DNA of 64,000 nucleotides from Candidatus Nanoarchaeia archaeon (GCA_038874075.1 JAVZDD010000002.1:4605-68604); one strand, 5' to 3'; shown: positions 4,754-62,798, numbered from the stretch's first letter. Made by a program: numbers and translations. The notes: generated by a model from the sequence alone, not told the origin.

Positions 4754-4773
4754 ATAAATTTATCAATTTGAAG

Positions 4774-6156
4774 ATGATTATTTTAATTATGCAAGCAAAG
4801 CAGATATTCTCTTTGAGCTCGATTGTAATAGTAATTTTTTTAGTTGGTTGCATTGGTCAAACAACACAGATGTGCACAAATCCAGATATTTGCAGTGATG
4901 ATAATCGCTGCTGTTCTGGTTACATATGTTGTGATGGTGCATGTGTTAGAGCTGAGACCTGCGCTTGCACAGGAAACATTATTTTGAGCGAACAATTTTT
5001 GAAGAATTACACAGGTACAAATATCTCATCAGGTACAAATGTACAATTCACCATATGCGGACTTAATAAATACTGTGAAAATGAGACAGTCTACATTAAA
5101 GAATCAAATTGCGATGCTCCAGATTATTTAACTTCATTTAAACCAGTTTATAAAAGCTCTTGTAATAATTTCGGTGGTTCGCCTTCTTTTTTCCTTACAT
5201 ATGGTTCGCACACGATTTGTGCATGTATTGACATAAACAAAGATAATAAGTTTGATGGCGGGGAGAGGTCATGCAGAAGTTTCTTGATTTGTCATTCAAA
5301 TCTTTCAGAGACATGCTACTCGGATGCAATGTGCTGTGAGGGTAGATGTATGAATGGCAAATGTTGCTTAACAGAAAATCAAGTGTGTAGGAATAACGAA
5401 GAATGTTGTACGAACTTTTGTTCAAATGGCACATGTAAGGAAATACCAGTAACAACATGCGCTGGTCAGACAAAATTAGATTTACCATCCATTGTTTCTC
5501 CCCAAAGCCCGATTTCTGCAAAAATTTATGGTCTAAACTCACTCTGTGCTGGGCATAAAGTGTATCTTAAAAAACAAAATTGTACTGGCGAGATAATCAT
5601 AAGTACTACACTAGATAGCAACGGAAGTCGTTCATTCCAATTTTCCGCGCCTAGCATGCTCGGTACCCACACATATGCTGCTTGTGTTGATATTACAGGG
5701 AATGAAACATTTGATAAGCCAGAAGAGTACACAACGAAACAGGTTAGGGTATGTTATGGACTTGGGCAAAGATGTGAGAATGATAATGAATGTTGCTGTA
5801 ATATATGTGATTATGTTTGCGGGGCATGCGATGGCGATGTTAACCTATCTTTGAGTGCATACAATGTAACACCCAACGCAACGATCCTTGCAACGATTTC
5901 TGGTTTAAGCAACAGATGCTTGAACAGGACAATTGAACTTAGACAATCAAGTTGTGTGGGTGAATTAATAAAATCATGCAATGTTGAAATGTCTTTCTGT
6001 GAGGGTGATAGATGCACTTATGGTTGCCAATTCTCATTTAATGCACCAGCACAAAACGGAACGTATAGATACTTTGCCTTTTTAGATCTCGATCTAGACG
6101 GTTTCATATGCATAAGTGAAAAAGAGTACGGGTATGCGATTGTCAATGTTATCTAG
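4774..6156 (+). CDS. Cysteine-rich modular secreted/surface protein
   Basis: About 460 aa; N-terminal hydrophobic anchor ending LVGC, about 50 Cys, three about 80-aa repeats (x-GLN-x-C...GxHTYAAC-DI), Cys-rich linkers, many N-x-S/T sequons. Track start 4768 is TTG; ATG at 4774. Confidence 0.6.
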   Translation: MIILIMQAKQIFSLSSIVIVIFLVGCIGQTTQMCTNPDICSDDNRCCSGYICCDGACVRAETCACTGNIILSEQFLKNYTGTNISSGTNVQFTICGLNKYCENETVYIKESNCDAPDYLTSFKPVYKSSCNNFGGSPSFFLTYGSHTICACIDINKDNKFDGGERSCRSFLICHSNLSETCYSDAMCCEGRCMNGKCCLTENQVCRNNEECCTNFCSNGTCKEIPVTTCAGQTKLDLPSIVSPQSPISAKIYGLNSLCAGHKVYLKKQNCTGEIIISTTLDSNGSRSFQFSAPSMLGTHTYAACVDITGNETFDKPEEYTTKQVRVCYGLGQRCENDNECCCNICDYVCGACDGDVNLSLSAYNVTPNATILATISGLSNRCLNRTIELRQSSCVGELIKSCNVEMSFCEGDRCTYGCQFSFNAPAQNGTYRYFAFLDLDLDGFICISEKEYGYAIVNVI

Positions 6157-6574
6157 AACTTAATCTTTTTTGCAATGTTTTTATTTCTTCGTAAGCTTTG
6201 CGTGGCGATGAAAAATTTTTGACTAATCTTTCAAATGGACACTCTTGATCGCCACTTAAAATTCTTGGTACAAGATTTTCATATTCAAAATAAATACTCC
6301 TACTACTTAGCCACTTTTTTGCCTCTTTACTCATAATGGTCGCGAATACTGCATCAACTTTTGTATAGCTGCAAAGCATCGCTACCGCCTTTCCGACGAT
6401 TTTATCCGCCACCGAAGCACCATTCATCTTTTCCCCCAGATCGTCAATCGCTACGAGAAAGCCGCGTATTCCACTCAACCTTGATTTAAATATTATTTGA
6501 TGATTTTTTACAATTATTAAATTAAATCCCCTCTTCTTTAGTTCTTCTCTCGCAATTCTAACATCATCCATCAT
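6149..6574 (-). CDS. Conserved hypothetical protein
   Basis: 141 aa ORF, no confidently recognisable motif; overlaps stop of upstream gene (operon with 6571..7482). Confidence 0.4.
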   Translation of the reverse strand: MMDDVRIAREELKKRGFNLIIVKNHQIIFKSRLSGIRGFLVAIDDLGEKMNGASVADKIVGKAVAMLCSYTKVDAVFATIMSKEAKKWLSSRSIYFEYENLVPRILSGDQECPFERLVKNFSSPRKAYEEIKTLQKRLSSR

Positions 6575-7482
6575 TTTTCTTCTCTTAGCGAATTTATTTC
6601 TGCTCTGAGTTCAATGATCTGCTTTTCATAATCTCGCATTATTTCATTGAATGTTTTCTCCTCCATCTTTCCCTTGAAAAATTCTTTTTGTACCTCATCT
6701 TTTTTTCTTTTTATTTGCTCAATTTTTTGCTCCAATTCCCTTATCACTTCTTCTCTATCCGCCTTCGTTTTCTTAATTCTCTGAGTAATTCTTTTTAAAT
6801 CTTCACTGAAACTTTTAATATTGATTTGTTTTATTTTTTCACCTGATTTGTACAGAAATTTATTTAATAGTACAATTAGAAGTATGAAGAAAATCACTTG
6901 TAACATTATCGTAATCACATTCGATTTTCTCTTTAAATCAATCTGTACATGGAAAGGCACATTTTTTTCCAGATTCTTTGCAAAATCGATCACAATTTCA
7001 TTTTCAATCTTTAACCTGTACACAGCTGGATCAATTCGTTCTAATTCATAATCTTTAGGCAGAAAAATCCTGATTGAAAGATTTGAGACGTCTTCAGTAT
7101 TCAAGAAAACAAACTCAATTGAATTTACCCCATCCTTTTGTTTTACTATACCCATAAAATTTGCTTTTATGTTGTAGTTAATCTTTTCGCCTTGTTGTAT
7201 TGGTTTTGGGAAAAACACAATTATTTTTGAATCATCAACTTCATATCTCATCCTTTCGGATATAAATCCAAGCTTGGTTACTTCCACGTTGCTGAATGTT
7301 AAGTTGTAAAATGTGATTTCTTGCCTGTCAACTGTTCTCTGCGCAATGAACTCAACTAACAAATCAGCCTGCATATTACCATCTGATATATGTCGCAGTT
7401 CTAGAGCAATCCTACTGTCAGCATGAGCAAGATTTACCAAAAGTAGTGCAAATGAAATGAGTACATAATACCTAATTTTCAT
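6571..7482 (-). CDS. Signal-peptide membrane-anchored protein with C-terminal coiled coil
   Basis: 303 aa; N-terminal signal-like MKIRYYVLISFALLLVNLAHA, one TM (VITIMLQVIFFILLIVLL), K/E-rich heptad-like C-terminus. Confidence 0.5.
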   Translation of the reverse strand: MKIRYYVLISFALLLVNLAHADSRIALELRHISDGNMQADLLVEFIAQRTVDRQEITFYNLTFSNVEVTKLGFISERMRYEVDDSKIIVFFPKPIQQGEKINYNIKANFMGIVKQKDGVNSIEFVFLNTEDVSNLSIRIFLPKDYELERIDPAVYRLKIENEIVIDFAKNLEKNVPFHVQIDLKRKSNVITIMLQVIFFILLIVLLNKFLYKSGEKIKQINIKSFSEDLKRITQRIKKTKADREEVIRELEQKIEQIKRKKDEVQKEFFKGKMEEKTFNEIMRDYEKQIIELRAEINSLREEK

Positions 7483-7600: not shown

Positions 7601-7610
7601 AATTTTTATA
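7601..7610 (+). promoter_or_regulatory. Candidate TATA box (aatttttata) for a leaderless MBF1-like transcript
   Basis: A/T-rich TATA-like element about 27-30 nt upstream of ATG 7637; inference only. Confidence 0.3.
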
Positions 7611-7636
7611 TGTTTAACATTTATTTAAGTCTTTGT

Positions 7637-8092
7637 ATGGTAATTTGCGAACTTTGCGGTAAAGAAGTGGAAAAGACATTAGATGTCAGCATCGAAGGTT
7701 CTGTACTTAGGCTATGCGAGTCATGCTCGAAGTTTGGTAAGGTCATCAAAGAAAATAAAATTGTACCAAAAAAAGTTGAAAAAGAGGAGGAAGAGAAAGA
7801 AATAACAATTGTTGAAAACTATGCTGAAATTTTCAGAGAACTGAGAGAAAAGCTTGGATTAACGCAAGAAGAATTCGCTCGCAAGCTCAATGTGAAAGAA
7901 AGTGAAATAAAGAAAATTGAAAGTTCAAAGCTCGAACCTGACATCAATCTAGCACTAAAAATTGAAAAAATGTTTGGAGTTAAATTAATCGAGGAAGGAT
8001 TTAATGTTTTATACAATAAAAGAGAGGAGAAGATAGGCAACTTGACAATCGGGGACGTTATTAAACTTAAGAAAAAGAAGAATTTTCGTTAA
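7637..8092 (+). CDS. mbf1: Archaeal multiprotein bridging factor 1-like protein (zinc ribbon + HTH-XRE)
   Basis: N-terminal CELCG...CESC zinc ribbon, C-terminal helix-turn-helix LGLTQEEFARKLNVKESEIKKIE; second in-frame ATG chosen because the first ATG (7610) sits inside the TATA-like element. Confidence 0.65.
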   Translation: MVICELCGKEVEKTLDVSIEGSVLRLCESCSKFGKVIKENKIVPKKVEKEEEEKEITIVENYAEIFRELREKLGLTQEEFARKLNVKESEIKKIESSKLEPDINLALKIEKMFGVKLIEEGFNVLYNKREEKIGNLTIGDVIKLKKKKNFR

Positions 8093-8124
8093 GTTTAAAT
8101 TTAAAGTTATTTTAAATAAATCCA

Positions 8125-8526
8125 ATGAAGTCTCAAGTGGCCATTGAATACATGATATTAATTTCTTTAATTCTACTACTCTTAGTACCTATCTGGATCT
8201 ATCTTATGCTTTCAAGGATACAGCTTCAAGATGATCTTTCAATTTCATACGCCAAAGATGCGGTCAATCGAATAAAAGATGCAGCCGATTTGGTTTACAT
8301 CCAAGGAAGTCCGGCTCGAGTGAAAGTGAATATTTATATTCCAGAAAATGTGCACAGCATAAATTTTACTGATAGGACGATCATCATCAAATTAAGGACA
8401 AGTGCTGGTCTCGTTGACATTCATGCAGAAACATTAGCTAACATTACAGGACAGCTGCCTGTTCAAAGCGGATACTACGAAGTAATTGTTAAATCCGAAG
8501 TGGGTTATGTGAATGTCACGATCTAA
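8125..8526 (+). CDS. Prepilin-like protein (class III signal peptide-like N-terminus)
   Basis: MKS-QVAIEY then about 20 hydrophobic residues; Q at +1 and E at +5 relative to a putative K-S cleavage site; many N-x-S/T sequons. Confidence 0.5.
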   Translation: MKSQVAIEYMILISLILLLLVPIWIYLMLSRIQLQDDLSISYAKDAVNRIKDAADLVYIQGSPARVKVNIYIPENVHSINFTDRTIIIKLRTSAGLVDIHAETLANITGQLPVQSGYYEVIVKSEVGYVNVTI

Positions 8527-8905
8527 GTCTCAAATAATCGCGGAAACGCTTTTTGTATATGCAATCTTATTTGCATTTTCAATGATCATGATAATCTACA
8601 TATTCGATCAAAATACACAAATGTTGGAAGAAAGAAAAAGGGCAGAAGCAAATAGAATTTCTTCAGATATTGTGGATGCAATAAATACAGCTGTGATTGA
8701 GGGTGATGGCTTCTCAATTACCTTCACAACACCACCAGACATATTGGGGACGAACTACACGCTAAACATCGATGATGGGGCATTATTGGTTGAATGGAGC
8801 AATCATACGTTAAGTAAAACAATTCTCACCAAGAATGTGTATGGTACATTAAAAAAAGGCACAAATACTGTGAGAAATGAAAATGGGCAGATTTTTATTG
8901 AATAA
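8513..8905 (+). CDS. Prepilin-like protein (class III signal peptide-like N-terminus)
   Basis: MSRSKS-QIIAETLFVYAILFAF; overlaps upstream gene by 14 nt. Confidence 0.5.
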   Translation: MSRSKSQIIAETLFVYAILFAFSMIMIIYIFDQNTQMLEERKRAEANRISSDIVDAINTAVIEGDGFSITFTTPPDILGTNYTLNIDDGALLVEWSNHTLSKTILTKNVYGTLKKGTNTVRNENGQIFIE

Positions 8906-9410
8906 AAAAGCACAAGTATTATCTGCTGATTTAGTGGTAAGCATTTTCATATTCACAATTATCATCTCTTTGTTTTTTATTTTTTGGAGAAATGTATATA
9001 ACAACCTGACAATGCAGGAAAAGTTTTTAGAATTACAATATTCGGCAATAAGAATCTCAAATATGCTCGTGAAGACAACCGGTTATCCAAGCAATTGGAA
9101 TTCAACCAATGTTGTTCAGATTGGGCTTGCATCAGAGGCAAATGTACTCTCAATTGAAAAGTTAAGAGTTTTCTTGGATATTAATTACGCTGAAATCAAG
9201 AGAATAATGAAAATAAGTGAGGATTTTAGGGTAAGAGTGAAATACAGAAATGGTAGTACGATTTTGGATAATCTTGGCTTGCCATTAGAAAAGGGATTGG
9301 AACCATCTCCAAGCGCCAAGATAATCGTTCCCATAGAAAGACCATGTCTATTAAAATTAGAAAATGTAACTGTAATTTGTATCTTTGAGTTTAAGTTGTG
9401 GTCAACATGA
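8877..9410 (+). CDS. Prepilin-like protein (class III signal peptide-like N-terminus)
   Basis: MKMGRFLLNKKA-QVLSADLVVSIFIFTII; overlaps upstream gene by 29 nt. Confidence 0.45.
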   Translation: MKMGRFLLNKKAQVLSADLVVSIFIFTIIISLFFIFWRNVYNNLTMQEKFLELQYSAIRISNMLVKTTGYPSNWNSTNVVQIGLASEANVLSIEKLRVFLDINYAEIKRIMKISEDFRVRVKYRNGSTILDNLGLPLEKGLEPSPSAKIIVPIERPCLLKLENVTVICIFEFKLWST

Positions 9411-12175
9411 AAAAAGGTTTTGTAATTCCACTTGATATGACAATCGCGATTATCATATTACTATTTACCTCAACCATATTCACATTCTTTCAGTATGGGC
9501 TTGAGACACCGGGAATAATCTATGAGCTTTCATATCAAAGGGCTGAAGATACGCTCACGATCTTGCAAAAAACAAAGATTGCTTATGTAACAGATGATCC
9601 CGTCGTAACACAATACATCAATCAAGGGATGATCACAGAAGAAGACATGAATAAAACGATATTGGACTTGATTGGTACATTTTGGTCCGAGGGAAAGGTT
9701 GATTTGGCCGTCAATTTATCAAAGAGTATTTTTGATTCACTATTACCACCAGAAGTTGGTTACGAAATTGTAATAGGGAACGACACTATTTATAGTCGAC
9801 CAGGTGTATTGGGTAGTATTTTCAGAGTGAGGACAGTTGTCTCTGGTTTCAAAACCGGAGAAGCACCACTAGGTTGCATCGCAAGCGCCTACATAGAAAA
9901 AATTAAAGGAAAACGAACCGCATCTTACTATTACTTTGGTGGTTTTACTGGTCAGGGAAATTTAACCTTTTATATTTATGATATTCCAAGCGATGCAATC
10001 ATAGAAAGCATCTATCTAGAACTCAGCACCGTGGCAAATGCCACTTTATACATAAATGGAAATTTTTGTCAATCATTAAATAAGAAATATCCAAATTACA
10101 CCGTTGAAAATTGGACAATATTTGATCAAAATTGCATCAATAACATCAGCAAGGGAGTGGCAAACCTATTCACCATTAACTTCTCTTCCCCAGTTACGAG
10201 TGCATACATTGGTGGCGGTTACATAAAGATCACGTATGATACTGCACAGATGAATGTTCCTCTGGGCAATGTGATGCAATACAACTTCACAGGAATTTCT
10301 GGTGTTATCAACCTGTATGATTCATTTTATATTCCAGGAAATTTAACATCGATGGAGATGCATTTGGAATTTTTAAGTAACTATTCAACTTTTTTCAATA
10401 TTGGTAACAAAACAATTTTTGAGAATAATGGAAGTAATACTACACAAATCATTGATTTCAATGATTCGTATCTATCACAAATTTTGAATTACAGTGAGAT
10501 AAGCTTGGAAACAATTCCATTGCGCTTCGGTATGAAGGCATTTAACATCACGATTCAACAGAATGCTGATGTCATTTTGATCACAGATTTATCTGGAAGT
10601 ATGGATTGGAGATTAGATAGCGAAAATACAGGAATAGCCAGAAATTGTACTGATCCTTTATTGAATAGTTCAAATACAAAAAGAATAAGCTTAGCAAAAT
10701 GTTTGGACAAGGAATTCGTTGATATCATATTAAATACTTCTGGAAATAGGGTTGGATTGGTTGGATTTTATAGTGACAATTCACCACCATACAAAGGAAG
10801 AACAATCATTCACGATTTATCCGATAATAAGACAAGCTTATACAATGCAATCGACAGCTATTTTATCCAGGGTGGAACATGTATCTGCTGTGGTATAAAC
10901 AGGGCTTATAACATTTTGAGTGCGCAGAGCAATGCATCAAGGAAAAAATTCATCGTTGTAATGTCAGATGGAATACCAACACACCAATGTGGCTCAAGTG
11001 GTACAGATGAGTGTCAAGGGATTAGAGATGGTTCTCCGGCAAATGAGGGTTTGTGGTTAGGTTGGGGGGCCGGATGTTATGGTGGAGGAGACGATTGTAA
11101 TACGACCGATTGCTTGTGTGCGATGCAAAATGCGAATTGGTCTTCATGCAGGTCATACAATAATTTGAATGCGACCGTATATTCAATTGGATTCGGACCT
11201 GTTGCAAGCTGTTGGAGTGCAAATTGGACATTGAGATCAATTGCTGATTGTGGACATGGCAGTTACTATGCAAGCAGCGATGCAGATGAACTCAAACAAA
11301 TTTACAGAAGTATCGCAGAATCGATCTTGAATGCATCTTACACCACACAATTGATAGAGGTAACAAATGTAACAAACACAATATTATATCCATCTTCTTA
11401 CATTAAATTTAATTACACACCCATTGTACCGCAATATGGTTACTCTGAAATATCTATAAAAGGTGATACAAAACCTTTCAGCGGTTGCAATGGAAGTTTT
11501 TTTGTTCCAGGTCAATTACAAATTGATGACGTTCAAGTTACATCTTACTCATTTGATTATTGGACGGATAAAATATTTGTGAATAATAGCATTACAAATG
11601 GTAGTTTGATCAATGTCTTTAATCTTTCAAAGTTTGGTAGTGATTATAAAAAACTTGGTGATCCATATGCGATCAAATTTCCAGCTTACTTCATTGGATC
11701 AAACGAGACTAATTACATTAACATTCTGCTTGCCCTGAGTCCGACAAATCAAAGCACAAATTGTTCAGCTGGTGATAGGGTCATTTACACTGGTAGAATT
11801 AGAACACCAATTATCTACTCAAATGTCCTACCATTTTGCAAAGGAAGCAATGTGAGCGTTTGCTTTGATAAAGATCACGATGGCTATGCAGATGGTTGTT
11901 CATACATTGCAATCGGTAAAAATCTTCCGAATTTCAATGCCACACCAAAAACCGTGGAGGATTTGAATCCAAATGAAAACGCAGTAGATCAAGTTTTCCT
12001 ACAACTTTTAGATGCATTAAACTTTGTTACAATACCAGCGAACACTGGTAGATCAGGAAATTTCACGAATCCGATTGACATAGAACTCGTTTCGGAACTG
12101 AATTTTGATACTGTTGATACAGCAAACGTACCATCTCTTTGGCAACCCGTATCAATTGAGGTGAGAATTTCATGA
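9407..12175 (+). CDS. Large prepilin-like surface protein with von Willebrand factor A domain
   Basis: MKKG-FVIPLD N-terminus plus hydrophobic helix; MIDAS motif DLSGSMD, GGT and VVMSDG motifs (vWA), Cys-rich insert, very high N-x-S/T density. Track start 9398 is GTG; ATG 9407 overlaps upstream stop (ATGA). Confidence 0.65.
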   Translation: MKKGFVIPLDMTIAIIILLFTSTIFTFFQYGLETPGIIYELSYQRAEDTLTILQKTKIAYVTDDPVVTQYINQGMITEEDMNKTILDLIGTFWSEGKVDLAVNLSKSIFDSLLPPEVGYEIVIGNDTIYSRPGVLGSIFRVRTVVSGFKTGEAPLGCIASAYIEKIKGKRTASYYYFGGFTGQGNLTFYIYDIPSDAIIESIYLELSTVANATLYINGNFCQSLNKKYPNYTVENWTIFDQNCINNISKGVANLFTINFSSPVTSAYIGGGYIKITYDTAQMNVPLGNVMQYNFTGISGVINLYDSFYIPGNLTSMEMHLEFLSNYSTFFNIGNKTIFENNGSNTTQIIDFNDSYLSQILNYSEISLETIPLRFGMKAFNITIQQNADVILITDLSGSMDWRLDSENTGIARNCTDPLLNSSNTKRISLAKCLDKEFVDIILNTSGNRVGLVGFYSDNSPPYKGRTIIHDLSDNKTSLYNAIDSYFIQGGTCICCGINRAYNILSAQSNASRKKFIVVMSDGIPTHQCGSSGTDECQGIRDGSPANEGLWLGWGAGCYGGGDDCNTTDCLCAMQNANWSSCRSYNNLNATVYSIGFGPVASCWSANWTLRSIADCGHGSYYASSDADELKQIYRSIAESILNASYTTQLIEVTNVTNTILYPSSYIKFNYTPIVPQYGYSEISIKGDTKPFSGCNGSFFVPGQLQIDDVQVTSYSFDYWTDKIFVNNSITNGSLINVFNLSKFGSDYKKLGDPYAIKFPAYFIGSNETNYINILLALSPTNQSTNCSAGDRVIYTGRIRTPIIYSNVLPFCKGSNVSVCFDKDHDGYADGCSYIAIGKNLPNFNATPKTVEDLNPNENAVDQVFLQLLDALNFVTIPANTGRSGNFTNPIDIELVSELNFDTVDTANVPSLWQPVSIEVRIS

Positions 12176-13407
12176 AAAGAGGCATAAGTTTCAGCATCAT
12201 CACATTCTTGTTTCTGATACCAATACTCACGTTCATAATCACATACTCAGAATCAATGCAATCAATCAGGAGGGAAAGCATAAAAAAGATTCTATCTGAT
12301 CAAAATATCTTCTTTTCTAAAACTTTGCTTAATGACCTAGAGAAAATGATATGGATAACGGGGAAACGAGCGATAATTTCAGCAATACAAAGAGTGATTA
12401 AGTATGGTACACCACTGAACGATTCCATTTCCGTTATAAAAGAGCTGATGCAAAACGGTACGATTTTTGGTGTAAATGAAACCCTAATGCAAAACAACAC
12501 AATCGGTTACTGGATAAACTTAATCCAATTGGAACAAAATGTATCTGCTTTCAATTTTTCAATCGCTTATTCAAATTTAGAGGTTGATTGGGAATCATTT
12601 AATTGCATTTTTAATGTTTCATTCTCAATTAATGTTTCTGACATTTCAAATACAACCAGGTCCACGAGGATTGGAAATATCTCAATTCTTGTTTCAATCG
12701 AAAAGATGGAAGATCCGATTTATCCACTATACACGAATGGATTGTTTAGAAAAAGTATAAAAATTTGTAATTCAACACTTCCCGAGGTTCGTAGTTTGGC
12801 TTTTGGTACAATCGCGAGTAAAAATGTCACAGGTATATCAGTCATTGGCCTCTCATCAAATTTAACTTACATTCAATCAATTCAAAACAAATCAGATAAA
12901 ATACTCGTCACAGATAACCTGACGATCATAGGTTCTGCCTTAATAAATGCATTTAAAGGAGTCGTTGCGGATCATAGCGATTTACCAGCAGGTATTACAG
13001 TACCATATATCATAAACACAACAAATGCAACAACATCCATACCAGACGCACGTTTAATATATTTGGACGAAATCACGAAGAAAGTTTGGGACATTGAAAA
13101 ATTTGAAGATACAATAAATACTGGTTGTTACCATATTTCATTGAATGGTTCAAACATTTTTGGTAGGTTAGAGGGAAAATTGAATTCTACGGGGAATAAA
13201 TCAGGCATTGAAAGTTTCGTTGATGTTAGAAAATTAATTTCAATGGATATACCAGTGAAAGAAAACCAAACACTTATTGATTATCTCTATTTTAGTAACA
13301 ACTCTCATCCAGGATGTAAAGTAAGGGGCATCAATGAAACGTGGTTTAGAATTGATCCCTGGAATGCTGAAAGATACGGAGTAGGAGAGATTTTAGATTG
13401 TAGTTAG
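12172..13407 (+). CDS. Membrane-anchored extracellular protein, last gene of the prepilin-like operon
   Basis: MKRGISFSIITFLFLIPILTFII N-terminus; SD GAGGTGAG upstream; start overlaps upstream stop; many sequons. Confidence 0.5.
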   Translation: MKRGISFSIITFLFLIPILTFIITYSESMQSIRRESIKKILSDQNIFFSKTLLNDLEKMIWITGKRAIISAIQRVIKYGTPLNDSISVIKELMQNGTIFGVNETLMQNNTIGYWINLIQLEQNVSAFNFSIAYSNLEVDWESFNCIFNVSFSINVSDISNTTRSTRIGNISILVSIEKMEDPIYPLYTNGLFRKSIKICNSTLPEVRSLAFGTIASKNVTGISVIGLSSNLTYIQSIQNKSDKILVTDNLTIIGSALINAFKGVVADHSDLPAGITVPYIINTTNATTSIPDARLIYLDEITKKVWDIEKFEDTINTGCYHISLNGSNIFGRLEGKLNSTGNKSGIESFVDVRKLISMDIPVKENQTLIDYLYFSNNSHPGCKVRGINETWFRIDPWNAERYGVGEILDCS

Positions 13408-14462
13408 CTTGGACATCTTGGACATGAGATACAATTGTATGAGTTATTAATAAAAACATTTCCGGTGAGAGATGGATCAGCGTTGATGCAATATACGCCA
13501 ATCACATTTTGTTCAATAATATTATTAGAAATTTGTATATTTGATTCTGTTATGATGCCAATGTGGTTTCTATAAATTCTACTATTACTTATAATTGTGT
13601 TGCTTCTCGGAATAAATAAACCCTGTCCCCACAATTCTGTGGAATTAAAACCACATCCACTCAGTTCTGAGTTATTGATTTGTAATGTTGCACCAGGTCG
13701 AACCTCAAAAAAGAAATTTGCATCTTCAAAATCACCATTTGTAATCTTTGAATTTAAGACATAAAGTGCACCCATATCTCCAACTTGAATGCCGTATTCA
13801 CCATCATAACTCGAATTTATACGCAAGGTCACATTGTGAAGGAATAATGCCGTAGAGAAAGGTAGGAGTGGATAGGTGATTTCACCACCAGTTCGAATCG
13901 TCAAATTTCCATTCAAATTTATAATTGTGTCACCGCAATATGTTGACTTATTAACAATCCATTCGCCAAATGTTGGGAACTCACACGGGGCTAGGTAAAT
14001 GTACCCATCAGATGGTGTGGCTTCTGAAGATGGAACCGTAAATTCAAATACAAATGAACCACCAGAAGGAAGTATAGCAATTAATTTTATCGTGTGGTTT
14101 TTTTCTGCTTCAAGCGGAGGCACAAATGTGATCGTTATTGATTCATTCGGCTTTAAATTGACCTCAATCTCATCTACCAATCTATCATCAACAAAAACCT
14201 TTATTTTTTCTATCTCCTCGGTTCCGGTGTTCTCTATTATCGTTTGATTTCCCTTGACTTCCTTGAAGCTGATTTCTACTTCTTTTTTGGGTTCTTGAGT
14301 ATGAGTAGATCCAGTCTTTGTTATTTGATAGTAAATCATCGCAATTAAAACAATTGCCACCAAGAGAATAGGAATCAATTTTTTTAGGAGATCACTTTTT
14401 TTATGAACCTCTTTTTCCTTCTTCACGACTGTTTGCTTGTCCTTAACTTCTCTCTTTTTCAT
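13404..14462 (-). CDS. Membrane-anchored protein with right-handed parallel beta-helix repeats
   Basis: K-rich N-terminus plus TM (LIPILLVAIVLIAMIYY); C-terminal repeats SNSRIYRNHIGIITESNIQISNNIIEQNVIGVY typical of PbH1 beta-helix repeats; ends CISCPRCPS. Confidence 0.55.
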   Translation of the reverse strand: MKKREVKDKQTVVKKEKEVHKKSDLLKKLIPILLVAIVLIAMIYYQITKTGSTHTQEPKKEVEISFKEVKGNQTIIENTGTEEIEKIKVFVDDRLVDEIEVNLKPNESITITFVPPLEAEKNHTIKLIAILPSGGSFVFEFTVPSSEATPSDGYIYLAPCEFPTFGEWIVNKSTYCGDTIINLNGNLTIRTGGEITYPLLPFSTALFLHNVTLRINSSYDGEYGIQVGDMGALYVLNSKITNGDFEDANFFFEVRPGATLQINNSELSGCGFNSTELWGQGLFIPRSNTIISNSRIYRNHIGIITESNIQISNNIIEQNVIGVYCINADPSLTGNVFINNSYNCISCPRCPS

Positions 14463-59496: not shown

Positions 59497-61002
59497 ATGA
59501 TGGATAAAGAAAAGATAATTTTGGATGCATATTTCAAGGATAGAAGCATTATCATTCACAACATCGAATCATTTAACAAGTTCATTGACAAGGGAATGCA
59601 AAGAGTTGTTGATGAAATTGGTGGGATCTCTTCTGATATTCTTCCAGAAGATATTCAAAGCTTGAAGATAAAGTTTGGTAAAATCACAGTAGAAAAACCA
59701 CACACACAAGAAGCAGAAGGCATCGCTGAAGAAATAACACCGATGCAAGCAAGATTGAGAAACATCACATATGAATCACCAATAATTTTGGAAATGGTGA
59801 TGGAGAAAGATGGTGTAGAGATAGAGAGAAACAACATACGCATTGGTAGTATACCTATTATGTTAAAATCAAAATATTGTGTGTTGAACGGAAAAACGGA
59901 GGAAGAGTTGATTGAATACGGTGAAGATCCAAATGACCCTGGTGGTTACTTTATCATAAATGGTACTGAAAGGATTATTGTCATTATTGAAGACCTAGCA
60001 CCGAATAAAGTCTTTACTGAGACAGATAAGACGGGCCCATTCCCAACAATTGCAAAAATATTCTCAGAAGACACACAATATAGAATTCCTCATGTGCTTG
60101 AGAGATCTAAGGACGGGATTATATACGTAAGTTTTGCAAGAGCAAATAAAGTACCATTTGCGATTTTGATGAAAGCGCTCGGGATCACAAATGAGAAAGC
60201 AATTGTGAGCGCAGTTTCTGATGATGAAAAACTTTTCAGTGACTTGTATATCAATCTTTATGAAACAAGTGAAATAAAGAGTGAGGAAGATGCGCTTGAT
60301 TTCATTGGAAGAAAACTTGGTGTTACATACTCAAAACCAAAAAGAGTTGAAAGAGCATGTGAAGTAATAGATAAATTCCTTTTCCCTCACATAGGTCATT
60401 CAGAATATGATCGACTTCCAAAGGCTTATTTCCTTGCAAAAACAATTAAGAAATTATTGCTTGTCTCCCAGGGAGTATTTCCAGAAGATGACAAGGATCA
60501 TTATTCAAATAAAAGATTAAGGCTCTGTGGAGACATGCTAGAAACATTGTTCAGGTTCTCCTTCAGAATGCTCGTCGGAGACATGAAATATAATTTAGAG
60601 AGATTATTAAAAAGAGGAAGACTTCCAACACTCCAAGCAATAACTAGAGCGCAATTATTAACATCAAGAATAAGAAGTGCATTGGCAACTGGAGAATGGA
60701 TTGGTGAAAGACATGGTATAAGTCAGCACATTGACCGATTGAATCATTTTGCCACGCTTTCACATCTAAGAAGAGTTGTTTCCTTACTCACCGCAAGTAG
60801 AGAAAATTTCGAAGCAAGAGATTTGCACCCAACGCAATGGGGAAGACTTTGTTCTCATGAAAGTCCAGAAGGTCCTGGCATTGGATTAAGAAAAAATCTT
60901 GCAATCACATGTGAGATTTCGACCGAATGTAGCATAAGCGATGAAGAATTGATTCAGCAGTTAAAAAATTTTGGTTTGAATGAGATTGGTGGGAAAAAAT
61001 GA
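59497..61002 (+). CDS. rpoB2: DNA-directed RNA polymerase subunit B'' (N-terminal half of split Rpo2)
   Basis: 501 aa with conserved RpoB N-terminal blocks (GGYFIINGTERIIV, HLRRV); start overlaps following gene. Confidence 0.9.
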   Translation: MMDKEKIILDAYFKDRSIIIHNIESFNKFIDKGMQRVVDEIGGISSDILPEDIQSLKIKFGKITVEKPHTQEAEGIAEEITPMQARLRNITYESPIILEMVMEKDGVEIERNNIRIGSIPIMLKSKYCVLNGKTEEELIEYGEDPNDPGGYFIINGTERIIVIIEDLAPNKVFTETDKTGPFPTIAKIFSEDTQYRIPHVLERSKDGIIYVSFARANKVPFAILMKALGITNEKAIVSAVSDDEKLFSDLYINLYETSEIKSEEDALDFIGRKLGVTYSKPKRVERACEVIDKFLFPHIGHSEYDRLPKAYFLAKTIKKLLLVSQGVFPEDDKDHYSNKRLRLCGDMLETLFRFSFRMLVGDMKYNLERLLKRGRLPTLQAITRAQLLTSRIRSALATGEWIGERHGISQHIDRLNHFATLSHLRRVVSLLTASRENFEARDLHPTQWGRLCSHESPEGPGIGLRKNLAITCEISTECSISDEELIQQLKNFGLNEIGGKK

Positions 61003-62798
61003 GTGATGTTTTTTTAAATGGTAAGTTTGTTGGAGAAGTAAAAGAACCAGAAAAGTTTGTTCAGAAAATAAGAGAAAACAGGAGAAACGGTGTCTTACCA
61101 AATGAAATAAATGTTTCTTACCATGAAGAGCGAGATGAAGTTTACATAAGCACCGAAAAGGGGAGAGCAAGGAGACCGCTTATTGTTGTTGAAAATGGAA
61201 AGCCAAAATTAACAAAGGAGCACCTTGAAAAATTACAAAAAGGAGAGATCAGATGGTCTGACTTGGTTAAGGAAGGCGTGATTGAATATTTGGATGCAGA
61301 TGAGGAGGAAAATTGTTATATTGCAATTAACGAAAATGAATTGACAAAGGAACATACTCATCTTGAAATTTCACCGCTTGTAATCCTTGGTTCTCAAGCA
61401 GCGATGATACCCTACGCTGAGCACAATCTAAGTGTAAGGATCCTCATTGGTGCTAAAGTAATAAAGCAAAGTTTGGGTATATATGCTGCAAATTTCTTAC
61501 TTAGAATGGATACTGATTCCTCAATTTTACACTACCCGCAACGTCCGATTGTTAAGACAAAAATCTATGACACAATAAATTATGATTCGCATCCAGCAGC
61601 TCAGAATATTGTTGTAGCAATCATGTCTTTTGAAGGATATAACATGGAAGATGCGATTATTATGAATAAAGCAAGTATAGAAAGGGGTCTTTACAGATCG
61701 ACATACTATAGACCATACAAAACAGAAGAACTAAGATACTCTGGTGGTCAAGTAGACAAGATAAAAATCCCTGAAAAGGATATCAAAGGCTATAGAACAG
61801 AAGAGGCATATCGTTATTTGGAAGAAGATGGTATTATATATCCCGAGGCAGAAGTGAAGGCTGGGGATGTATTGATTGGAAAAACATCACCACCAAGATT
61901 TTTAACCAGTTTAGAGGAATTCAAAGTAGGTCTGGAATCAAGAAGAGAGACATCCGTGCCTGTGAGACACGGTGAAAAAGGCATCGTTGAAAGTGTTATA
62001 TTGACGGAAAGCGAAGAAGGAAATAGATTTGTAAAGGTAAAAGTGAGAGATTTAAGAGTACCTGAACTTGGTGATAAGTTTGCAAATAGACACGGACAAA
62101 AAGGGGTTGTTGGCTTGATCGTACCTCAGGAGGACATGCCTTTTTCTGCTTCTGGTGTGATTCCCGATATCATTTTCTCACCACATTCAATTCCATCAAG
62201 GATGACTGTGGGACACTTGATTGAATTAATTGGTGGAAAAGTTGGAGCACTGGGTGGAAAGTACATTGATGGTACTGCGTGGAGTGGGCAAGATGAATTC
62301 GAATTGAGAAAGCAGCTCAAGCAACTTGGATTTAGGGAAGATGGAAGTGAAACACTTTATGACGGTGCAACTGGCAAGAAATACAAAGCGAGGATATTCA
62401 TTGGAGAAATGTATTATTCCAAACTTAGACACATGGTTGCAAATAAGATACATGCAAGATCAAGAGGTCCTGTCCAACTTTTAACGAGACAGCCAACTGA
62501 AGGCAGAAGTAAGGAGGGAGGTCTCAGGTTAGGAGAAATGGAAAAAGATTGTTTTGTTGCGCATGGTGCAAGTTTACTCCTAAAAGAAAGATTTGATTCT
62601 GATAAGACGGTTGTACCAATCTGTAAGAAATGTGGCTTAGTCGCAATCTACAATAAGTACCGAGACAAAGGAAGATGTCCTGTTTGTGGTGAAGATGCTC
62701 CAATTGTTTTCATCGAAATGAGTTATGCATTCAAATTGCTGTTAGATGAACTGAAAAGCTTGTGTATTTATCCAAAATTGATTGTGAGGTTTAAATAG
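60999..62798 (+). CDS. rpoB1: DNA-directed RNA polymerase subunit B' (C-terminal half of split Rpo2)
   Basis: 599 aa with RpoB C-terminal blocks (NRHGQKGV, GEMEKDCFVAHGA) and C-terminal zinc ribbon CKKCG...CPVCG. Confidence 0.9.
   Translation: MSDVFLNGKFVGEVKEPEKFVQKIRENRRNGVLPNEINVSYHEERDEVYISTEKGRARRPLIVVENGKPKLTKEHLEKLQKGEIRWSDLVKEGVIEYLDADEEENCYIAINENELTKEHTHLEISPLVILGSQAAMIPYAEHNLSVRILIGAKVIKQSLGIYAANFLLRMDTDSSILHYPQRPIVKTKIYDTINYDSHPAAQNIVVAIMSFEGYNMEDAIIMNKASIERGLYRSTYYRPYKTEELRYSGGQVDKIKIPEKDIKGYRTEEAYRYLEEDGIIYPEAEVKAGDVLIGKTSPPRFLTSLEEFKVGLESRRETSVPVRHGEKGIVESVILTESEEGNRFVKVKVRDLRVPELGDKFANRHGQKGVVGLIVPQEDMPFSASGVIPDIIFSPHSIPSRMTVGHLIELIGGKVGALGGKYIDGTAWSGQDEFELRKQLKQLGFREDGSETLYDGATGKKYKARIFIGEMYYSKLRHMVANKIHARSRGPVQLLTRQPTEGRSKEGGLRLGEMEKDCFVAHGASLLLKERFDSDKTVVPICKKCGLVAIYNKYRDKGRCPVCGEDAPIVFIEMSYAFKLLLDELKSLCIYPKLIVRFK

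What the first reader, a model, noticed from the sequence alone, without database searches (positions are those of the whole stretch)
8125..13407. Five-gene translationally coupled operon of prepilin-like proteins with no pilus assembly machinery
Five consecutive plus-strand genes begin with a short basic N-terminus followed by about 20 hydrophobic residues. Three carry K-[S/A]-Q with an acidic residue at +5/+6 (MKS-QVAIEY, MSRSKS-QIIAE, KKA-QVLSAD) and two carry K/R-G followed by hydrophobics (MKKG-FVIPLD, MKRG-ISF), resembling class III (type IV prepilin-like) signal peptides. Every junction has overlapping stop/start codons. No assembly ATPase, platform protein or prepilin peptidase lies in the window, so this may be a self-contained accessory adhesion or filament-tip module. 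This is my best candidate for an undescribed system.
Basis: partly seen in the sequence, partly recalled or inferred. Interest (0 to 1): 0.8.

Follow-up and report, generated by a model that had tools for sequence, protein, structure and literature searches.

The report
DPANN pilus minor-pilin and adhesin cassette
These five genes are a widely conserved set of pilus-subunit-like proteins of tiny symbiotic (DPANN) archaea, including one large adhesin, and they probably form the sticky tip or primer of a type IV pilus whose motor genes lie elsewhere in this genome; this is an uncharacterised member of a known kind of system, not a new one.

Summary
Five overlapping plus-strand genes (8125-13407) all start with a short basic leader, [KR][GAS], and about 20 hydrophobic residues. 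They are the only such proteins in the window.

The genes are type IV pilin-like, but they are not a self-contained system.

- **Distribution:** relatives of the 922-aa vWA protein (g4) occur in at least 474 species-level genomes of DPANN and Altiarchaeota.
- **Cassette:** 41 of 57 loci with enough flanking DNA keep the same five genes in the same order.
- **Motor linkage:** 25 of 29 loci with at least 8 kb on both sides carry a T2SSE ATPase and T2SSF platform genes (usually two) 1-4 kb from g4. This lineage is a minority in which the cassette is detached, though still under purifying selection (dN/dS 0.06-0.17).
- **Signal motifs:** g1-g3 have Q at +1, g1/g2 have E at +5, g3/g4 have D at +6, and g5 never has an acidic residue.
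- **Structure:** the g4 model best matches pilus tip adhesins, including the vWA-bearing type IV pilin PilB of Streptococcus sanguinis. Its MIDAS residues are invariant.

Best reading: a minor-pilin and adhesin priming/tip complex. DPANN pilin islands were already predicted in outline (Makarova et al. 2019), so I rate this a new member of a known kind, of moderate interest. I did not find the motor genes of this genome.

The parts
8093..8124 (+). Intergenic region upstream of g1 with TATA-like TTTAAA at 8100-8105 (about 20-25 nt before the ATG). Possible archaeal promoter of a leaderless or short-leader operon transcript.
   Evidence: Read directly from the sequence. This is inference only: the genome is 34% G+C, so such hexamers are common, and no archaeal promoter tool was available.
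8125..8526 (+). g1: small pilin-like protein (133 aa). Leader MKS, then QVAIEY with E at +5. Paralogue of g2.
   Evidence: Pfam Class_IIIsignal E=0.013 for this protein (below cutoff), but 22 of 42 family members hit it. Q4 and E8 are invariant in alignment A2. hhalign g1 vs g2: 98.7% probability, E=2e-16 over 124 columns.
8513..8905 (+). g2: small pilin-like protein (130 aa). Leader MSRSKS, then QIIAE with E at +5. Distant member of, or relative of, Pfam DUF7266.
   Evidence: In the family, 19 of 45 members hit Class_IIIsignal and 16 of 45 hit DUF7266 (best 8.7e-7). Weak NCBIfam ComGD minor-pilin hit, 9e-4.
8877..9410 (+). g3: pilin-like protein (177 aa; start 8877 ATG or 8898 TTG). ..KKA|QVLSAD with Q at +1 and D at +6.
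   Evidence: The family occurs in 70 loci. 58 of 63 members have Q+1 and an acid at +6. 12 of 49 members weakly hit DUF7287. Similarity to g2 is limited to the N-terminal 62 columns.
9407..12175 (+). g4: large modular pilin-like adhesin (922 aa). Leader MKKG, then FVIPLD with D at +6. N-terminal hydrophobic helix, beta-sandwich region, vWA domain (aa 387-645, about nt 10565-11341) with MIDAS D394-x-S396-x-S398 / T491 / D521, then C-terminal beta domains. 22 Cys and 40 N-glycosylation sequons.
12172..13407 (+). g5: pilin-like protein (411 aa). Leader MKRG, then ISFSII with no acidic residue. 77-residue N-terminal helix plus a globular domain containing a swivelling beta/beta/alpha (PA-like) module. 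Candidate capping subunit.

Best explanation
The five genes form one operon encoding the accessory ('minor') pilin set and adhesin of an archaeal type IV pilus, conserved across DPANN and Altiarchaeota.

Inferred mechanism:
1. Each protein inserts into the membrane through its N-terminal hydrophobic helix.
2. A class III signal peptidase (PibD/EppA type, encoded elsewhere) removes the short basic leader after [KR][GAS].
3. The five processed subunits assemble on the platform (T2SSF pair) and ATPase (T2SSE), also encoded elsewhere in this genome, into a priming complex that ends up at the filament tip.
4. g5 lacks the acidic residue and would cap the complex, as GspK does in type II secretion systems. 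Below it would come the vWA/MIDAS adhesin g4, then g3 (both with D at +6), then the paralogues g1 and g2 (E at +5, like the major pilin).
5. A PilA-like major pilin (K[GA]|QAAMEFLMTYGWAI in relatives) is then polymerised underneath.
6. The heavily N-glycosylated, disulfide-rich g4 presents a metal-ion-dependent adhesion site for attachment to a surface, most plausibly a host cell, since cultivated DPANN are episymbionts.

Shown here: the pilin-like N-termini and their family-wide conservation, the conserved gene order, the linkage to T2SSE/T2SSF in relatives, the vWA/MIDAS domain, the structural similarity to pilus tip adhesins, and purifying selection.

Inferred only: cleavage, the order of subunits, tip location, and the ligand.
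For: - **Distribution and order:** cassette order g1-g2-g3-g4-g5 is kept in 41 of 57 loci with enough flank, and g5 follows g4 in 55 of 57. g4 relatives occur in at least 474 species genomes.
- **Motor linkage:** T2SSE plus T2SSF genes (usually two) lie 1-4 kb from g4 in 25 of 29 loci with at least 8 kb on both sides. KaiC-like ATPase genes, CBS-domain genes and a PilA-like pilin gene often lie beside them.
- **Signal motifs:** conserved class III motifs and Pfam Class_IIIsignal hits in about half of g1/g2 family members.
- **g4:** invariant MIDAS residues. Its best structural matches are pilus tip adhesins, including a type IV pilin with a grafted vWA module.
- **g5:** very long N-terminal helix, no acidic residue, and a weak GspK match.
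- **Extracellular location:** sequon density is 4.05 per 100 aa against 0.44 in cytoplasmic proteins of the same window.
- **Still functional when detached:** dN/dS is 0.06-0.17 against the 76%-identical relative L090, which keeps the same detached synteny.
Against: - No ATPase, platform protein or A24 peptidase was found in the 64-kb window or in a further 9.5 kb upstream. I could not show that this genome has them at all.
- The window's own g1 scores below the Pfam gathering threshold for PF04021 (15.9 against 23.7 bits).
- g3, g4 and g5 match no pilin family by sequence.
- No solved structure is related by sequence to g1 or g5.
- The strongest fold matches of g5 are to a swivelling enzyme domain. 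The GspK match is only rank 37.
- Tip versus base location is argued by analogy with bacteria. Makarova et al. 2016 placed archaeal minor pilins at the base in their model.
Confidence: 0.7

Rival explanations
1. The five proteins form a short, non-extended pseudopilus or membrane-anchored stub, like the type II secretion pseudopilus or the Sulfolobus bindosome. It would use the same motor to display the vWA protein at the cell surface without a long filament. The detached arrangement here would reflect use of a generic motor.
For: The window has no major-pilin candidate. The cassette is separable from the motor in this lineage and in 4 of 29 fully flanked relatives. Archaeal class III proteins that functionalise a type IV machinery rather than build a pilus are discussed in bioRxiv 10.64898/2026.04.22.720090.
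Against: In many relatives a canonical PilA-like pilin gene lies within about 200 nt of the T2SSF genes in the same locus. That fits a real filament better. Major pilins are often stand-alone genes elsewhere (PMC4858521), so their absence from the window says little.
Confidence: 0.15
2. The proteins sit at the base of the pilus or in the envelope as anchor or gating components. This would resemble TadG, proposed to anchor the bacterial Tad pilus, or the base placement of minor pilins in the Makarova 2016 model.
For: [quoted passage not shown] That paper places archaeal minor pilins near the base by analogy with minor archaellins.
Against: The g4 vWA module most resembles tip adhesins. It is heavily sequon-rich and Cys-rich, as expected for an exposed extracellular protein. 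g5 lacks the acidic residue, which in bacterial systems marks the first, distal subunit. No TadG/TadE Pfam hit reached significance.
Confidence: 0.1
3. One reading: a self-contained adhesion module that works without any type IV filament machinery, the N-termini being ordinary Sec signal anchors.
For: No machinery genes were found in 73.5 kb of this contig.
Against: The [KR][GAS]|Q...E motif is conserved and half of the g1/g2 family members hit Class_IIIsignal. The cassette is linked to T2SSE/T2SSF in 25 of 29 relatives. Sec anchors have no reason to conserve Q+1 and E+5/D+6.
Confidence: 0.05

Closest known systems
Bacterial minor-pilin tip/priming complexes: P. aeruginosa FimU-PilVWX with the PilY1 adhesin, and type II secretion GspH-I-J-K
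   Different: No sequence homology beyond the N-terminus. The acid sits at +6 in g3 and g4. g4 is itself a pilin-like protein with a class III leader, whereas PilY1 is a non-pilin. The setting is archaeal, with no secretin or outer membrane.
Streptococcus sanguinis PilB, a modular type IV minor pilin with a grafted vWA module (PDB 7b7p)
   Different: g4 is more than twice as long, with extra beta-sandwich domains before and after the vWA domain and a Cys-rich insert. Sequence identity is 14-18%. The origin is probably independent.
Archaeal type IV pilus loci with several minor pilins and a large adhesin-like protein: M. maripaludis Epd pilus/'System 1', euryarchaeal 'System 2', and DPANN variants of subsystem 4A (Makarova 2016, PMC4858521; Sivabalasarma and Albers 2026, bioRxiv 10.64898/2026.04.22.720090)
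   Same: An ATPase with two platform genes in relatives. At least five class III proteins per locus. Q at +1 as in EppA substrates (my own knowledge of Szabo et al. 2007, not tested here). Pilin sets that can be encoded apart from the motor. 'PilY-like' adhesins are reported in these loci.
   Different: The adhesins named in those papers are DUF2341 or Ig-fold proteins. Neither text mentions a vWA pilin. Makarova 2016 states that cognate pilins of nanoarchaeal ATPases could not be identified. I could not assign the DPANN loci to System 1, 2 or 4A.
Pfam DUF7266 / DUF7287 / DUF7289 (archaeal families of unknown function)
   Same: 16 of 45 g2-family members hit DUF7266 (best 8.7e-7). 12 of 49 g3-family members weakly hit DUF7287. 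One g1-family member hits DUF7289.
   Different: The window proteins themselves score below threshold (g2: 14.9 against 27.6 bits). No paper in the searchable library mentions these families.
Tip adhesins of sortase and type V pili: SpaC, RrgA, PitA, GBS104, Mfa5
   Same: The vWA/MIDAS adhesin module flanked by beta-sandwich domains. These are the top structural matches.
   Different: Their assembly chemistry is entirely different (sortase or protease-mediated strand exchange). The resemblance concerns the adhesive module only.

Membership tests
Archaeal class III signal peptide / type IV pilin-like proteins (Pfam PF04021 Class_IIIsignal; FlaFind-type criteria) | Short, positively charged leader ending in [KR][GAS], directly followed by about 20 hydrophobic residues | tested here: met
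   Met by all five window proteins. Conserved in 45-72 homologues per gene.
Archaeal class III signal peptide / type IV pilin-like proteins (Pfam PF04021 Class_IIIsignal; FlaFind-type criteria) | Profile match to PF04021 at or above the curated cutoff | tested here: inconclusive
   Window g1 scores 15.9 bits against a cutoff of 23.7. 22 of 42 g1-family and 19 of 45 g2-family members match at E≤0.1, best about 1e-5. g3, g4 and g5 do not match.
Archaeal class III signal peptide / type IV pilin-like proteins (Pfam PF04021 Class_IIIsignal; FlaFind-type criteria) | Leader removed by a PibD/FlaK/EppA-type prepilin peptidase | not testable with these tools
   Needs N-terminal proteomics or an in vitro cleavage assay. 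No A24 peptidase gene was found among the window ORFs scanned.
Type IV filament system (ATPase + platform + pilins) | Pilin genes linked to T2SSE ATPase and T2SSF platform genes | tested here: not met
   Not met in this window or in 9.5 kb further upstream. Met in relatives: 25 of 29 fully flanked loci (gene tables). Whether the motor exists elsewhere in this genome was not established.
Epd-type / 'System 1' archaeal pilus | Two platform-protein genes beside the ATPase | tested here: met
   Met in relatives only: L003, L004, L005, L006 and L088 each have two PF00482 genes. Clade 2 and 4A loci can also have two (PMC4858521), so this feature does not discriminate.
Epd-type / 'System 1' archaeal pilus | Homology of the pilins to EpdA-E, and a dedicated 9-TM EppA peptidase in the locus | not tested
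No Peptidase_A24 hit appears in any locus gene table examined.
vWA (von Willebrand factor A) MIDAS adhesins | vWA fold with the MIDAS motif DxSxS...T...D | tested here: met
Bacterial minor pilin / pseudopilin families (GspH-K, FimU/PilVWX, ComGD-G, TadE/F/G) | Significant sequence match to the family profiles | tested here: not met
   Only sub-threshold hits: ComGD 19.7 bits against a cutoff of 70, and single members to TadE, TadF and ComGE at E 0.03-0.04. The resemblance is functional and architectural, not family membership.

The most novel reading that the evidence does not exclude
The cassette would be the DPANN-wide host-attachment device. It would be an independently evolved archaeal counterpart of the bacterial minor-pilin/PilY1 tip complex. 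Its vWA/MIDAS pilin (g4) would bind a host surface component and help determine which host an episymbiont can attach to. The acid-less g5 would cap and prime the filament. In this lineage the tip module would have been uncoupled from the motor locus, which would allow tip sets to be exchanged independently of the motor.
Probability: 0.3. Interest if true: 0.65.

Novelty: new member of a known kind. Interest (0 to 1): 0.4.

Why it matters
How DPANN archaea recognise and attach to their hosts is largely unknown. In the analogous ultrasmall bacteria (Saccharibacteria), type IV pili drive episymbiosis (PMC9894109, PMC11623550). A five-gene pilin and vWA-adhesin cassette found in hundreds of DPANN species gives a concrete candidate for the attachment organelle's tip. 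It also defines families for genes now annotated as 'hypothetical' or merely 'VWA domain-containing'. Some are misannotated in source databases: a g4 homologue as 'ribosomal protein S19' and a g5 homologue as 'phosphohistidine swiveling domain-containing protein'. The kind of system is familiar, however. Nothing was tested experimentally, and the link to host attachment is inference.

Tried and rejected
1. **Finding this genome's ATPase.** The third homologue search, using the ATPase of the closest motor-linked relative (L007), returned thousands of proteins about 61% identical. The two closest hits (72-73%) belong to other assemblies. Walking 9.5 kb upstream of the window in JAPDLL010000002.1 found only ABC transporter, radical SAM, CBS and Na/H exchanger genes. 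About 117 kb downstream and 19 kb upstream of that contig remain unread.
2. **Sequence-profile searches of the g1 and g5 families against PDB** found nothing meaningful.
3. **Pfam on the g5 family** gave no consistent family.
I could not see whether cultivated archaea have structural homologues.
5. **Literature.** Searches for DUF7266/7287/7288/7289 returned no papers. Searches combining DPANN, pili and vWA found no description of this cassette.
6. **Large window ORFs at 59497-62798**, considered as a possible ATPase/platform pair, are split RpoB.
7. **The sigma-70 promoter and terminator scanner** was not used because the organism is an archaeon.

Full report
**What is there.** The window comes from a low-G+C (about 34%) DPANN archaeon. 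It carries archaeal RNA polymerase genes, including a split rpoB at 59497-62798. The g4 protein is identical to a protein of a 'Candidatus Parvarchaeota archaeon' MAG, assembly GCA_025920685.1. On the plus strand, 8125-13407 holds five ORFs:

| Gene | Coordinates | Length | N-terminus |
|---|---|---|---|
| g1 | 8125-8526 | 133 aa | MKS\|QVAIEY |
| g2 | 8513-8905 | 130 aa | MSRSKS\|QIIAE |
| g3 | 8877-9410 (or from TTG 8898) | 177 aa | NKKA\|QVLSAD |
| g4 | 9407-12175 | 922 aa | MKKG\|FVIPLD |
| g5 | 12172-13407 | 411 aa | MKRG\|ISFSII |

Neighbouring genes overlap by 14, 29 (8 with the TTG start), 4 and 4 nt. No other ORF in the 64 kb combines a genuine N-terminal [KR][GAS] site with a following hydrophobic stretch and a single TM segment.

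**The cassette is conserved and is normally part of a pilus locus.** g4 has hundreds of full-length homologues (870-1350 aa) in Aenigm-, Micr-, Woese-, Pace-, Nano- and Parvarchaeota.
- A scan of one genome per species found at least 474 genomes encoding a relative, including Altiarchaeota. I kept 80 loci.
- Iterated HMM searches over those loci found the g3 family in 70 loci and the g5 family in 76. g1 and g2 merged into a single superfamily.
- Of 57 loci with enough flank, 41 carry the complete cassette in the same order. g5 directly follows g4 in 55.
- Gene tables for four distant relatives each show a T2SSE ATPase and two T2SSF platform genes next to the cassette. These are Aenigmarchaeota L003, L004, Micrarchaeota L005 and Woesearchaeota L006. 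KaiC-like ATPase genes accompany the motor genes in L005 and L006, and CBS-domain and KaiC-like genes in L007 and L088.
- Across the set, 25 of 29 loci with at least 8 kb on both sides have the ATPase 1-4 kb from g4.
- In many relatives a PilA-like gene lies within about 200 nt of the T2SSF genes. Its product is 125-180 aa and begins K[GA]|Q[AT]A[ML]E[FY]LMTYGWAI. It is the obvious major-pilin candidate.

**This lineage is the exception.**
- HMMs for T2SSE and T2SSF find nothing in the window.
- Pfam scans of the large, multi-TM and Walker-A ORFs find no T2SSE, T2SSF or A24 peptidase.
- A further 9.5 kb upstream in the NCBI contig is also empty of such genes.
- The closest relative (L090, g4 76% identical) has the same detached synteny.
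- Between the two genomes the five genes show dN/dS of 0.06-0.17, similar to neighbouring housekeeping genes. dS is near saturation, so these values are approximate. The cassette is maintained by selection although it is separated from the motor.
- I could not locate the motor genes of this genome. That remains the main gap.

**The signal peptides.** Family-wide logos and counts give:

| Gene | Cleavage-site pattern | Count |
|---|---|---|
| g1 | [KR][AGS]\|Q-x-[SA]-x-E(+5)-[YF] | Q and E invariant in the 42-sequence alignment |
| g2 | same pattern as g1 | Q and E present in at least 90% |
| g3 | K[AGS]\|Q-x-x-x-x-D(+6) | 58 of 63 |
| g4 | K[GA]\|[FIVY]-x-x-x-x-D(+6) | 69 of 72 |
| g5 | [KR][GA]\|[IVQM] | acidic residue in first ten positions in only 1 of 69 |

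About half of the g1 and g2 family members hit Pfam Class_IIIsignal (best about 1e-5). The window's own g1 is below the cutoff. g1 and g2 are full-length paralogues (hhalign 98.7%, E=2e-16). g2 and g3 share only the N-terminal segment. Weak but recurrent hits tie g2 to DUF7266 (16 of 45 members, best 8.7e-7) and g3 to DUF7287 (12 of 49). This hints at a distant relation to pilin-set proteins of other archaea.

**The two large proteins.**
- **g4 domains.** It has a vWA domain (Pfam) with the MIDAS residues D394, S396, S398, T491 and D521 invariant among 27 homologues. The AlphaFold2 model (pLDDT 84.8) shows an N-terminal hydrophobic helix, a helical region, a beta-sandwich region, the vWA domain with a Cys-rich insert, and C-terminal beta domains.
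- **Glycosylation signal.** Both proteins are strongly enriched in N-glycosylation sequons. g4 has 40 against 13.3±3.1 expected and g5 has 23 against 6.2±2.0. The cassette averages 4.05 per 100 aa against 0.44 in cytoplasmic proteins of the window. This is what one expects of exposed archaeal surface glycoproteins.

**Most likely mechanism.** By analogy with bacterial type IVa pili and type II secretion systems (established knowledge), the low-abundance pilins form a complex that primes assembly and stays at the filament tip. The subunit without the acidic residue occupies the apex because it has no preceding N-terminus to neutralise. Applied here, g5 would cap, g4 would present the MIDAS adhesin, g3 and then g2/g1 would bridge to the major pilin, and the motor and peptidase would act in trans. 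The anatomy, conservation and linkage are shown. Processing, subunit order, tip location and ligand are inferred. I give the overall reading 0.7. That the proteins are type IV pilin-like components needing a T4P motor is about 0.85. The tip-complex details are about 0.5. The rivals are a short display pseudopilus (0.15), a basal anchor (0.10) and a machinery-independent module (0.05).

**Comparison with what is known.**
- Makarova et al. 2016 (PMC4858521) catalogued archaeal T4P loci with five or more minor pilins and large 'PilY-like' (DUF2341) adhesins. They showed that pilin sets and ATPase/TadC modules evolve and are located independently. They also stated that cognate pilins for nanoarchaeal ATPases could not be identified, and they discussed vWA only for cytoplasmic ArnB-type regulators and bacterial TadG.
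- Makarova, Wolf and Koonin 2019 (PMC6393860) predicted that DPANN 'dark matter' genes beside FlaI/TadC are diverse pilins.
- A 2026 preprint (10.64898/2026.04.22.720090) places DPANN loci with two platform genes in 'System 1' or subsystem 4A, with a 'PilY-like' adhesin. It does not mention vWA.

The kind of system is therefore known and the DPANN locus has been noticed in outline. What this analysis adds is the definition of a five-family cassette, its breadth, the graded acid motif, and the vWA pilin with tip-adhesin structure.

**Verdict.** I file this as a new member of a known kind, with moderate interest (0.4).

Noticed in passing
window 4768-6156 (+): A 455-462 aa protein with a lipobox-like N-terminus (..IFLVGC) and three repeats of a Cys-rich module followed by an Ig-like segment. 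It has no Pfam or NCBIfam hit. It lies 2 kb upstream of the cassette and is syntenic in the close relative L090 (421 aa). It may be another surface protein.
   Followed up: partly
window 13404-14462 (-): A convergent gene whose stop overlaps the stop of g5 by 4 nt. The 352-aa protein has an N-terminal TM anchor, weak CARDB/DUF2808 matches and beta-helix repeats (weak NosD hit in L090). It is conserved next to the cassette in L090 but evolves fast (54% identity, dN/dS 0.22).
   Followed up: partly
window 6571-7482 (-): A 303-aa protein with a signal peptide, a late TM segment and a C-terminal coiled coil. It has no family assignment and is syntenic in L090.
   Followed up: no
window 7610-8092 (+): A zinc-ribbon plus HTH_3 protein (weak HVO_2718-like match) sits 33 nt upstream of g1 on the same strand. 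It is syntenic in L001, L002 and L090. Whether it regulates the cassette or is merely a neighbour was not examined.
   Followed up: no
P0011, P0014, P0015, P0019-P0023 and similar; L005 10001-13564: Micrarchaeota-type g4 homologues are about 1180-1350 aa. Several add a PF14870 (BNR/beta-propeller-like) match to the vWA domain, an architecture that recalls bacterial PilY1.
   Followed up: no
L003, L005, L040, L050, L058, L079 (g3 position); L029, L032, L039, L060, L068 (g5 position): The cassette is modular. g3 comes in a 170-aa and a 365-380-aa form. g5 ranges from about 275 to 700 aa, with the long forms mostly in Altiarchaeota-like loci.
   Followed up: no
L007 17919-18392, L024 19016-19471, L061 19556-20044, L077 18011-18502 and many others: A highly conserved PilA-like candidate major pilin (K[GA]|Q[AT]A[ML]E[FY]LMTYGWAI..) lies just after the T2SSF genes in relatives, sometimes in two to four tandem copies (L053, L006). 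None is present in the window.
   Followed up: partly
P0006 and P0122: Source annotations are misleading. A g4 homologue is labelled 'ribosomal protein S19' by JGI. A g5 homologue is labelled 'phosphohistidine swiveling domain-containing protein'; the swivelling-domain fold inside g5 explains that label.
   Followed up: yes
window 59497-61002 and 60999-62798 (+): rpoB is split into two overlapping genes (Rpb2 domains 1-3 and domains 4-7).
   Followed up: no
L014 (Coatesbacteria MAG), L018/L037/L040/L043/L051/L078/L081 ('Methanosarcinales' MAGs), L019 ('Methanobacteriota'), L063 ('Euryarchaeota'): Several g4-bearing contigs sit in bins labelled as non-DPANN taxa. The contigs are short or the labels automatic. 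This may be mis-binning of DPANN contigs with their hosts or neighbours rather than true occurrence.
   Followed up: no
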